A stretch of 31,656 nt of DNA from contig JAFVCR010000213.1 of the NCBI GenBank assembly GCA_017479035.1, forward strand, positions 1 through 31,656, in the 5' to 3' direction. Made by a program: the position numbers and the translations under genes. This document shows positions 1 to 1,935 of the stretch, piece after piece. Under the pieces are notes generated by a model, which had not been told where the DNA came from, did not search any database, and saw only the letters and a program-made list of their open reading frames with translations. This DNA comes from Kiritimatiellia bacterium (GTDB lineage Bacteria; Verrucomicrobiota; Kiritimatiellia; RFP12; UBA1067). Every line of letters begins with the position of its first letter. Position 1 is the stretch's first letter.

Positions 1-35
1 GCCGCAAGCGCGGCAACCATCAGTATCTTTTTCAT
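1..35 (-). CDS. N-terminus of a putative secreted protein (signal peptide MKKILMVAALAA...), runs off the left edge
   Basis: Minus strand reads ATG AAA AAG ATA CTG ATG GTT GCC GCG CTT GCG; basic then hydrophobic signal-peptide pattern; AAGGAG Shine-Dalgarno just upstream (plus-strand ctcctt, 44-49). Confidence 0.7.
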   Translation of the reverse strand, partial: MKKILMVAALA

Positions 36-324
36 TTTCGCATCTCCTTGTTGAGATGCGCCGCAGATGAAAACGGCGCATCCCGTTGTGTCTTAGTTGA
101 GGCACTTCCAAGCCCAAATCGAAACACAACAAGAATGCGCCAAATCGTGTATATGGCTTACCCATTATACACTTGACGCGTTCCCATACTTCGCTTCGAT
201 TAGAAATTTGGAAGTTTTCAACTAAAGCCAAATATGTGAACTACGTTCACCTGTCCCATCCGCACACCCGTGCGCCGGAACCATGCCTAGGCAACGTTAC
301 ATCGCCCAAGCGGGAAAGAACACC
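36..324 (-). ncRNA. Candidate structured 5' leader / cis-regulatory RNA (no known family recognised)
   Basis: No convincing ORF; successive inverted repeats at ~251-320, 236-250, 208-231, 147-172, 75-141 and 39-60 between a consensus promoter and the SD/ATG at 35. Confidence 0.4.
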
Positions 325-327
325 TTT

Positions 328-356
328 ATAATATCACATTTCCGCCGCCGGTTCAA
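328..356 (-). promoter_or_regulatory. sigma70-type promoter TTGAAC-17-TATTAT with extended TG
   Basis: Minus strand TTGAAC (356-351), 17-nt spacer ending TGA, TATTAT (333-328); predicted TSS ~321-324. Confidence 0.65.
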
Positions 357-454
357 GCACAATTTCAAAGCATCAAATTCCAACATGCCGGCATGGGCAC
401 CGTCACTGCCGCGTTTTTTTGCAAAAATCGCCTTGTAATGTTTTTTAGACGGGG

Positions 455-1411
455 TTACCGCCAAAAAGAAAGAGAGGTTTTCTTGTATTCTTTCCGGGAA
501 ACGAGCATCACGCCGTTTTCAAGGCCGGAAGCCGCTTGCACACGCAAAAACTTTTCATGCGCTTCTGCCGGCGTTTTTGCATGAACCATTGCGAACAGAT
601 TGAACGGAAAGATCGGAGTAAGCACGCGCTCGTACGCATGGGACACCTCCGCGCAGGCGGCGAGTGCACGCCCTGCGGCCACAGTATCGCCGTCCATCCT
701 CCAGCAGCACATTCCATTGGCCACCCACCCTGCATTGCGGTGCGCAAGAAGGAGTGCGATACGCTTAAGGATGCCTCTTTTGTGCAGAGAGCGCACTGTC
801 TCCAGCGTATTTTCCGCATCGCCGAACTGCGCAAAATAGTCTGCCTGCACAATTGTGTCACCGCAAAGCCGTGCGACAATCGAACGTTCTTCCGCAGACA
901 GCACGGAAGGTTCGTCAGCGTCGCACGAGAACTCCGTTTTTTCATCGGCGATGCGGCTAGACTCCGGGAAAATCACATCTATCTTGTAGCGCTTGAGCGC
1001 AAAAAGAATCTCGAAATTCCACGGACGCAGCAAATTGCGCACATGGTCGGCCAACTCGTCGAAACGGCCATTTCCCTCCGAAAGCGTGAACCAGAGAGCT
1101 GGAGCTGCGATGTTTTCCGCCCGCCGCATATAGCAATGCGTAACGGCGGCGAGTGGAGTTATTTTAGCCGCAGCAGCATCGATTTCGCCATTCGGGACAT
1201 CTGCACAGCAAAGTGCGCTTTTGTAGCCCAAGCGCCTTGTATCGAACACGCCGCCGAACCTACGAACAAGCCTCTTCGCCCTGCTCTCCTCTATCAAGCG
1301 GAGCACATCCCCTTCCCCAGTACCGCACATCGTCGCCAACGCCTCGAAGGGCCTCCGCACAAGCGGGAGCCCCTCCTGCAACAACTGCAAAATGCCGTCA
1401 GGAGATTGCAA
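455..1411 (-). CDS. ahbAB: Siroheme decarboxylase, fused AhbA-AhbB (NirDL-like)
   Basis: Two AsnC/Lrp-like repeats: LQEGLPLVRRPF...RRFGGVFDTRRLGY...VTHCYMR (AhbA-like) and GILKRIALLLAHRNAGWVANGMCCW...VSHAYER...FPFNLFAMVH (AhbB-like). TTG start 5 nt after the lptE stop; start uncertain. Confidence 0.8.
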   Translation of the reverse strand: MQSPDGILQLLQEGLPLVRRPFEALATMCGTGEGDVLRLIEESRAKRLVRRFGGVFDTRRLGYKSALCCADVPNGEIDAAAAKITPLAAVTHCYMRRAENIAAPALWFTLSEGNGRFDELADHVRNLLRPWNFEILFALKRYKIDVIFPESSRIADEKTEFSCDADEPSVLSAEERSIVARLCGDTIVQADYFAQFGDAENTLETVRSLHKRGILKRIALLLAHRNAGWVANGMCCWRMDGDTVAAGRALAACAEVSHAYERVLTPIFPFNLFAMVHAKTPAEAHEKFLRVQAASGLENGVMLVSRKEYKKTSLSFWR

Positions 1412-1416
1412 ACCGT

Positions 1417-1935
1417 TTACTTGCTGTAGGGGAAAGAGACCACGTCGTCCACGATCTGCCGTGCGAGATCGGCGGTGACACGTTCTGCGGCGTTGCGCTG
1501 GCCCATGAGGAGGTCTCCCTGCGTGAAGAACGTGGTTTCTGCGGTATATTTGCGGTTGTCCTGCAACACCTCGCCCGTCTTTTTGTTTATGATGGAGACT
1601 TCCGCCACCACCTCGTAACGGTACTCGCTCGCCCGCATGCCGTATGCACGTTCAAATGTTACGCCGTGGCGGTCTGCCTTGACAATCGCTCCCTGCACTT
1701 CTATTGCGCCATCGCCAGTGCGTTTGAGTTTCATTGTTCCTTCGCGCTCGAACTCGCGGCGGATGAACTGCGTAGCCACCGGCCCGAGTTCGGCAGACAT
1801 GGTGCGGTTCTCGAACACGGGCACCGCCACGGTGCGCAAATCATCGGGGACGGCACCCGACCAACGGTAGGACGCGCACCCGGCTACTGCGGCGGTTACG
1901 AGGGATACAAACAAAATCTTCGGCAAAATTTTCAT
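1417..1935 (-). CDS. lptE: LptE-family (LPS assembly) lipoprotein
   Basis: Lipoprotein signal with lipobox AVAG-C, followed by TVAVPVFENRT and a length (172 aa) typical of the LptE family. Confidence 0.7.
   Translation of the reverse strand: MKILPKILFVSLVTAAVAGCASYRWSGAVPDDLRTVAVPVFENRTMSAELGPVATQFIRREFEREGTMKLKRTGDGAIEVQGAIVKADRHGVTFERAYGMRASEYRYEVVAEVSIINKKTGEVLQDNRKYTAETTFFTQGDLLMGQRNAAERVTADLARQIVDDVVSFPYSK

What the first reader, a model, noticed from the sequence alone, without database searches (positions are those of the whole stretch)
36..324. ~290-nt hairpin-tiled leader with no ORF: candidate new riboswitch or cis-regulatory RNA
Seen: a near-consensus promoter (TTGAAC-17-TATTAT, 356-328) points left, but the next real start codon is about 290 nt away at 35. 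The intervening minus-strand RNA is almost continuously foldable. It has a 5' multi-branch domain (UGGGCGAUG/CGUUGCCUA and CGCAC/GUGCG, closed by UCCC/GGGA), GUGAAC/GUUCAC (250-236), a UUGG...CCAA stem (231-208), a 10-bp stem with one bulge (172-147), and a ~19-bp stem extended to a GGAA-capped tip (141-75). Knowledge: I could not match it to the TPP, cobalamin, SAM, FMN, ZTP, THF, fluoride, guanidine, c-di-AMP, c-di-GMP, T-box or SRP consensus as I remember them. Inference: an uncharacterised leader RNA controlling a secreted protein, or a stand-alone sRNA.
Basis: partly seen in the sequence, partly recalled or inferred. Interest (0 to 1): 0.6.

Follow-up and report, generated by a model that had tools for sequence, protein, structure and literature searches.

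The report
Widespread self-kissing RNA attenuator switch
The stretch is one copy of a widespread RNA leader that is not in Rfam. It carries both halves of an antisense-like kissing pair and is predicted to fold either into a transcription terminator (gene off) or into a long rod that breaks it (gene on), in front of surface, defence and prophage accessory genes in gut bacteria.

Summary
The leader is real (folding z -7.6) and has no Rfam match. It is not unique: there are at least 21 copies in this Kiritimatiellia genome, matches in 61 of 101 relatives, and copies in Bacteroidota and gut prophages. The ~200-nt core has two mutually exclusive folds, both covarying. One is hairpin X plus hairpin Y with a U-tract (terminator; here it also hides the ribosome site). 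The other is a long rod that breaks Y. The X and Y loops are complementary, often CGCCAA/UUGGCG, the plasmid antisense kissing motif, and are flanked by hypervariable, copy-specific paired segments. A boxA-like motif often precedes the core. The Bacteroides thetaiotaomicron RNA BTnc042 looks like a member (by eye) and its published 3' end falls at the U-tract, which fits termination there. Best reading: a kissing-loop-driven attenuator for accessory genes; the trigger is unknown. Ligand-binding riboswitch is unlikely. This scan found the family before on other DNA (e1-3336040); its visible summary does not mention the kissing loops, variable segments, boxA, prophage context or BTnc042.

The parts
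328..356 (-). sigma70-type promoter (-35 at 356-351, extended -10 at 336-328)
   Evidence: Homology between own-genome copies begins at the -35 box.
315..323 (-). boxA-like motif near the 5' end of the predicted transcript
   Evidence: Motif upstream of the core in 42 of 78 homologs vs shuffle mean 8.3, max 16. Same motif in 16S leaders of relatives.
285..311 (-). hairpin P1 (clade-specific accessory)
   Evidence: Differs in distant homologs.
253..281 (-). hairpin P2 (clade-specific accessory)
236..250 (-). hairpin P3; competes with the base of hairpin X
174..248 (-). hairpin X (anti-antiterminator), fold XY; loop 215-207
   Evidence: -23.3 kcal/mol; one tree-aware significant pair
207..215 (-). 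X loop (variable segment v2), complementary to the Y loop
   Evidence: 8 of 8 pairs change on both sides
84..231 (-). rod Z (antiterminator fold): v1 226-218 with 100-92, v2 215-208 with 111-104, v3 201-192 with 126-117
   Evidence: (15 significant pairs)
147..172 (-). middle hairpin capping the rod; variable length
75..141 (-). hairpin Y (terminator-like), fold XY; loop 111-104
   Evidence: -35.1 kcal/mol; loop-closing pair significant
104..111 (-). Y loop starting with a YUNR U-turn motif
   Evidence: A YUNR match lies in the Y-loop window of 72 of 79 homologs, UUGGCG in 38 of 79
65..73 (-). U-rich tract after Y (5 U in 8 here, weaker than typical)
   Evidence: At least 6 U in 8 nt in 68 of 79 homologs
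53..84 (-). hairpin P5; forms with rod Z and blocks P6
39..60 (-). hairpin P6; hides the ribosome site in fold XY
44..49 (-). Shine-Dalgarno site
   Evidence: conserved in paralogs
1..35 (-). first 11 codons (signal peptide) of a secreted FGE-sulfatase/CLec-fold paralog; runs off the contig
   Evidence: Identical start in 370-398 aa paralogs with PF03781. Contig-end overlap with C171 or C211.

Best explanation
A cis-acting two-state transcription attenuator in which the leader carries both partners of an antisense-type kissing interaction. Hairpin X folds first (predicted). As hairpin Y emerges, its U-turn loop can kiss the complementary X loop, and pairing spreads through the copy-specific segments v1 and v3 into the long rod Z. 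Z takes the 5' arm of Y, so the terminator cannot close and RNA polymerase reads on (inferred). If the exchange is too slow or is blocked, Y closes in front of the U-tract and a ~250-nt terminated leader RNA is released. In this clade, a transcript left in fold XY also hides its ribosome site in P6. Shown by comparative data: both folds, the loop complementarity, the U-tract, the orientation between promoter and gene. Inferred: termination, kissing as the first step, order of folding. My best guess for the input is a kinetic race set by elongation rate and pausing, modulated in Kiritimatiellia by boxA-recruited NusB/NusE (about 40% of this explanation). A cognate leader RNA acting in trans comes next (about 30%), then an unknown RNA-binding protein (about 30%).
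For: On an alignment fitted to neither fold, both folds are 84% paired, with 25 of 37 and 26 of 37 pairs changed on both sides; 0 of 500 shuffles reach this, and slid controls fall to 38-61%. A tree-aware test keeps 15 rod pairs plus one X and one Y pair. At the U-tract the two folds are within 1 kcal/mol in this copy, and the folding series runs X, rod, XY, rod+P5. U-tract of at least 6 in 8 nt in 68 of 79. G-U pairs are 26-35% vs A-C up to 2% in scaffold helices, which points to RNA on this strand. A same-strand ORF follows in 76 of 79 and a promoter-like site precedes most copies. B. thetaiotaomicron BTnc042 has its own TSS, is 233 nt long, shows both loops and all helices by eye, and its listed 3' end falls at the U-rich tract after Y (PMC7366714 supplement). 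Ribosome site closed in XY (0.0 unpaired), about 0.5 open in Z, about 0.94 open in Z when boxA is occupied.
Against: No RNA data for this organism. The U-tract in this copy is weak (5 of 8). Equilibrium folding favours the rod in 65 of 79 homologs, so termination needs kinetic trapping or a factor. Only two XY pairs pass the tree-aware test, on an alignment fitted to the rod and with a home-made null. BTnc042 membership is by eye only, and that study lists no terminator for it. No boxA-like motif was seen in the Bacteroidota copies, so Nus input cannot be universal. No trigger was identified.
Confidence: 0.7

Rival explanations
1. The functional product is the ~230-250-nt RNA itself, a trans-acting small RNA. 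The terminator simply ends it and the downstream gene is incidental or uses another promoter.
For: BTnc042 is listed as a discrete intergenic sRNA with an 'orphan' TSS, and a second orphan TSS lies about 180 nt beyond its end.
Against: A same-strand gene starts within about 80 nt in most copies. An antiterminator fold is conserved with covariation. In this clade the element is duplicated together with promoter, ribosome site and signal peptide.
Confidence: 0.1
2. A ligand-binding riboswitch with a new aptamer.
For: Long, structured 5' leader with a terminator/antiterminator platform; no Rfam match.
Against: Conserved letters sit in helices needed by both folds and no conserved pocket-like junction was seen. 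The 5' domain is unrelated between clades and shrinks to one short hairpin in prophage copies. Downstream genes include methylases, FRG, SNF2, Sel1, LRR, glycosyltransferases and lipoproteins.
Confidence: 0.07
3. A DNA-level palindromic element (MITE, cruciform or recombination site) that spreads or captures cargo genes; RNA folding is a by-product.
For: Up to 23-26 copies per genome. Diverse foreign-looking cargo. The variable segments are 93-97% strict Watson-Crick, as DNA template switching would give.
Against: Scaffold helices use G-U, not A-C, so they work on one strand as RNA. Fixed orientation between promoter and gene. U-tract on one side only. The repeat unit starts at the -35 box and runs into the gene.
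Confidence: 0.07
4. The rod is an RNase III processing or mRNA-stability element and XY is only a folding intermediate.
For: The long, irregular rod is the most stable full-length fold in most copies.
Against: Does not explain the conserved Y base with U-tract, the U-turn loop or covariation in X and Y.
Confidence: 0.06

Closest known systems
Antisense-RNA transcription attenuators of pT181/pIP501-type plasmids (PMC3753616)
   Same: Leader with alternative terminator and antiterminator folds; the decision is nucleated by a hairpin-hairpin kiss; specificity is set by loop and upper-stem sequence.
   Different: Both kissing partners lie in cis on one strand. The kiss is predicted to turn the gene on rather than off. 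No counter-transcript promoter was found in this window. Downstream genes are not rep genes.
I-complex plasmid replication control (ColIb-P9, IncB/O, IncK: RNAI/Inc RNA with stem-loop I)
   Same: The commonest Y loop carries the same UUGGCG loop motif named for ColIb-P9 (reference titles in PMC10724649). [quoted passage not shown] An activating in-cis pairing exists there too (pseudoknot; from titles and my own knowledge).
   Different: Those systems control translation of a rep gene through a leader peptide and a separate antisense RNA. Here there is a terminator output, no conserved leader peptide, a full mirror hairpin in cis, and many chromosomal and prophage copies.
boxA/NusB-NusE leaders (rRNA, suhB; PMC5725501)
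   Same: boxA-like motif enriched upstream of the core and matching the 16S-leader motif of relatives. NusB-family domain in 100 of 101 relatives and Rho in this genome.
   Different: Present in only about half of the verrucomicrobial copies and not seen in Bacteroidota copies. It is an accessory to the switch, not the switch.
B. thetaiotaomicron BTnc042 (PMC7366714 supplement)
   Same: Same loops, helices and U-rich end, judged by eye from the printed sequence.
   Different: Listed only as an uncharacterised intergenic sRNA; no paper in the library names it in its main text.
Earlier scan finding e1-3336040 (two-state leader RNA)
   Same: Same family by description and shared words.
   Different: An unpublished AI note. 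Its visible summary does not mention the kissing motif, variable segments, boxA, prophage morons or BTnc042.

Membership tests
Any Rfam 15 family | Covariance-model score at the gathering threshold | tested here: not met
   Window; 20 homolog loci; 12 loci at E up to 0.5
pT181-type antisense attenuator | Mutually exclusive terminator and antiterminator in the leader | tested here: met
   Met by comparative evidence and folding; not shown experimentally
pT181-type antisense attenuator | Counter-transcribed antisense RNA from an opposite-strand promoter | tested here: inconclusive
   No plus-strand promoter-like site in window 1-1500; no RNA data
pT181-type antisense attenuator | Controls a plasmid replication gene | tested here: not met
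   Downstream genes are accessory, surface or defence genes
I-complex plasmid RNAI/SLI system | UUGGCG U-turn target loop | tested here: met
   38 of 79 homologs; YUNR in 72 of 79. The window copy has a variant loop.
I-complex plasmid RNAI/SLI system | Leader peptide coupled to a rep gene | tested here: not met
   No conserved short ORF; no rep gene
Riboswitch | Sequence-conserved aptamer tied to one metabolic theme | tested here: not met
Riboswitch | Direct ligand binding | not testable with these tools
   Needs in-line probing
boxA/Nus leader | boxA motif matching the lineage's rRNA boxA | tested here: met
   (clear in 16S leaders of two of three genomes; a variant in the third)
boxA/Nus leader | NusB/NusE binding | not testable with these tools
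   Needs ChIP or gel shift
NusG-paralog (RfaH/UpxY/LoaP) or ProQ-dependent leader | Co-occurring specialised factor | tested here: not met
   Near-complete genomes rich in copies (G044, G053, G058, G074) have one NusG-domain gene; ProQ in 0 of 101
MITE or other palindromic DNA repeat | Strand-symmetric palindrome, random orientation to genes | tested here: not met
   G-U far exceeds A-C; fixed orientation
MITE or other palindromic DNA repeat | Target-site duplications and empty sites | not tested
   No close strain pairs examined

The most novel reading that the evidence does not exclude
The hypervariable segments are an address code. Terminated leader RNAs act in trans on nascent leaders with the same code and not on others. 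Each accessory cassette or prophage moron would then sense its own copy number or a superinfecting relative through RNA alone, and dozens of paralogous switches would run orthogonally in one cell. Support: among close paralogs v1 differs at 67-73% of sites against 3.5% for the terminator base to ribosome-site stretch. Cognate X-Y duplexes average -33.6 vs -13.7 kcal/mol for non-cognate pairs. Not excluded: the variation is neutral and made by template switching between the arms.
Probability: 0.2. Interest if true: 0.9.

Novelty: new variant of a known kind. Interest (0 to 1): 0.72.

Why it matters
A structured RNA family missing from Rfam spans two phyla and gut prophages, reaches more than 20 copies per genome, and sits in front of surface, restriction-modification and other accessory genes. 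It may be a general on/off platform for foreign and surface genes in gut bacteria. Its design, an antisense-type kissing pair built into one leader with naturally diversified specificity segments, was not found described in the papers searched and is a ready library of orthogonal RNA switches. A likely member in B. thetaiotaomicron (BTnc042) makes it directly testable.

Tried and rejected
Rfam: no family.

Sequencing runs: no RNA holder listed; this is not evidence either way.

blastn in relatives found only signal-peptide hits; the covariance model was needed.

Phage and plasmid record collections gave no match with four homolog queries.

Papers: no description of the motif found. The first 200 of 408 supplements of PMC8040213 had no motif hit, and PMC10690425 has no supplements held, so overlap with those candidate lists is not excluded.

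Other systems considered: leader peptide rejected; NusG paralog and ProQ dependence not supported; retron or DGR link not supported, as no reverse transcriptase was found in this 67% complete genome; integron attC rejected by reasoning (own promoter, housekeeping gene upstream, no arrays); bridge-RNA-like guide not supported, since the variable segments pair with each other in cis (no systematic transposase search).

v1 and v3 pair with each other in hairpin X at chance level.

A Bacteroidota-tuned model could not be calibrated. The XY ribosome-site calculation used off-register constraints and was redone.

Full report
Observation. The window is a whole contig (G000:C89). Named records carrying the same motif are mostly Kiritimatiellia and Bacteroidota; the gene content and relatives place the host in Kiritimatiellia (inference). 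The promoter at 356-328, ribosome site at 49-44 and start at 35 are as described. The strand 325-30 folds at -125.7 kcal/mol, z -7.56. Rfam has no match. Upstream lies a siroheme decarboxylase-like gene, 455-1411.

Copies. The leader recurs in its own genome at 83-92% identity, starting at the -35 box and running into the signal peptide. A covariance model R1 gives 17 full copies, with four more cut by contig ends. Twelve precede secreted FGE-sulfatase-domain paralogs of about 340-400 aa. One is cut off by a contig end. Four precede a GT2 glycosyltransferase, a BspA-like protein, an EcoRI-type methylase and an unknown secreted protein. R1 hits 61 of 101 relatives, with 385 matches, and 48 of 151 genomes across the phylum. 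A loop pattern finds more than 119 genome stretches, including Prevotella, Bacteroides, Odoribacter and Epilithonimonas, and 65 IMG/VR stretches. R1 gave 58 matches over 60 tested loci, and Odoribacter lunatus has 26 copies. None matches Rfam.

Anatomy. The conserved core is about 200 nt with two folds. Fold XY has hairpin X (248-174, loop 215-207) and hairpin Y (141-75, loop 111-104) followed by a U-rich tract (73-65). Fold Z is a rod (231-84) in which v1, v2 (the two loops) and v3 pair across, taking the 5' arm of Y; P3 and P5 accompany it. On a MAFFT alignment fitted to neither fold, both are 84% paired with about 25 of 37 pairs changed on both sides, above all shuffles and slid controls. 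With 78 sequences and a tree-based null, 15 rod pairs, one X pair and one Y pair pass E 0.05; that alignment was fitted to the rod and the null is home-made. Scaffold helices hold 26-35% G-U and up to 2% A-C, so the element works as RNA on this strand. A U-tract of at least 6 in 8 nt follows Y in 68 of 79 copies. The Y loop carries a YUNR match in 72 of 79 and UUGGCG in 38 of 79. YUNR loops are common in RNA-RNA recognition (PMC4737173), and UUGGCG is the named loop motif of the ColIb-P9 antisense target (reference title in PMC10724649). A four-letter degenerate motif also arises easily by chance, so the hexamer is the stronger sign.

Variable segments. v1, v2 and v3 are 95-98% paired in the rod and 93-97% strictly Watson-Crick, yet v1 and v3 are near random in sequence. 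Among close paralogs v1 differs at 0.67-0.73 of sites and v3 at 0.42-0.47. P3 differs at 0.05, the Y base to ribosome-site stretch at 0.035, and fourfold sites of the first 45 codons at 0.22; later codons reach 0.57, so only v1 clearly outruns them. Ten per cent of columns hold 28% of the differences, and cognate X-Y duplexes average -33.6 against -13.7 kcal/mol for non-cognate ones. This fits either selection against cross-talk or arm-to-arm template switching; I could not separate them.

Energetics. For the nascent RNA up to the U-tract the window copy gives -102.1 (Z) and -101.1 (XY), and the series of growing transcripts passes X, rod, XY, rod+P5. Across homologs the rod is favoured by a median 6 kcal/mol, partly inflated by alignment errors in the constraints. 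In full-length RNA the ribosome site is closed by P6 in XY, half open in Z, and about 94% open in Z if the 5' boxA region is occupied. This clade therefore has a translational layer on top of a rather weak terminator.

5' region. The stretch between promoter and core is 40-250 nt of unrelated hairpins. A boxA-like motif occurs in 42 of 78 copies against 8.3 in shuffles (20 on the reverse strand). It matches the motif in 16S leaders of relatives and resembles the E. coli consensus (PMC5725501). In the window it is 323-315. Bacteroidota copies have a Bacteroidota-type -7 promoter box about 50-130 nt before the X loop in most cases and no boxA, so the core alone is the unit.

Context. Downstream genes are unrelated accessory genes: restriction-modification, FRG, SNF2 helicases, Sel1, LRR, glycosyltransferases, lipoproteins. 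In a group of gut prophages the element heads a cassette inserted against the head-gene cluster at a fixed site with different cargo. No co-occurring NusG paralog or ProQ was found.

Expression evidence from the literature. The dRNA-seq supplement of PMC7366714 prints a B. thetaiotaomicron sequence with both loops. By eye it also has the X stem, v1, v3, the antiterminator pairing and the Y base. It is BTnc042 (NC_004663.1 1155106-1154873, minus strand, 233 nt, own TSS). Counting back from the printed coordinates, the listed 3' end falls at the end of the U-rich tract after Y. This is what termination in fold XY predicts. I could not score that sequence with R1.

Verdict. A kissing-loop-nucleated attenuator is the best reading (0.7). 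Shown: two conserved exclusive folds, complementary loops, U-tract, position. Inferred: termination, the kinetic race, the role of boxA. It works like pT181-type and I-complex plasmid antisense controls but fails their membership tests. It is a new variant of a known kind, absent from Rfam and from the papers searched, and was seen once before by this scan on other DNA (e1-3336040). Interest 0.72.

Noticed in passing
G000 C21, C23, C20, C143, C187, C171, C211, C12, C172, C128, C200, C79, C146 and others: About 20 secreted FGE-sulfatase/CLec-fold paralogs with a near-identical N-terminal 150 aa and divergent C-terminal domains, resembling DGR-type target proteins. No reverse transcriptase was found in this 67% complete genome.
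   Followed up: partly
L024:7972-7974 (G000 C187): One paralog has ATT in place of the ATG start, with an otherwise intact leader and ORF.
   Followed up: no
L061:6421-7443: An EcoRI-type adenine methylase frame begins with a signal-peptide-like stretch right behind a leader copy, as if cargo had replaced a secreted gene.
   Followed up: no
L276, L283, L292, L298, L300, L316: Gut prophages with a moron cassette in opposite orientation between the head genes and a minor head protein that matches the Bxa ADP-ribosyltransferase family. Cargo lipoproteins differ between phages.
   Followed up: partly
   Followed up: no
L149, L152, L154: Near-identical promoter plus leader blocks in three genomes of another class, in front of different zinc-ribbon-start genes, suggesting recent spread of the cassette.
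   Followed up: no
G000 (whole genome): No NusG-domain gene and no tmRNA were found in the assembly, most likely from incompleteness.
   Followed up: no
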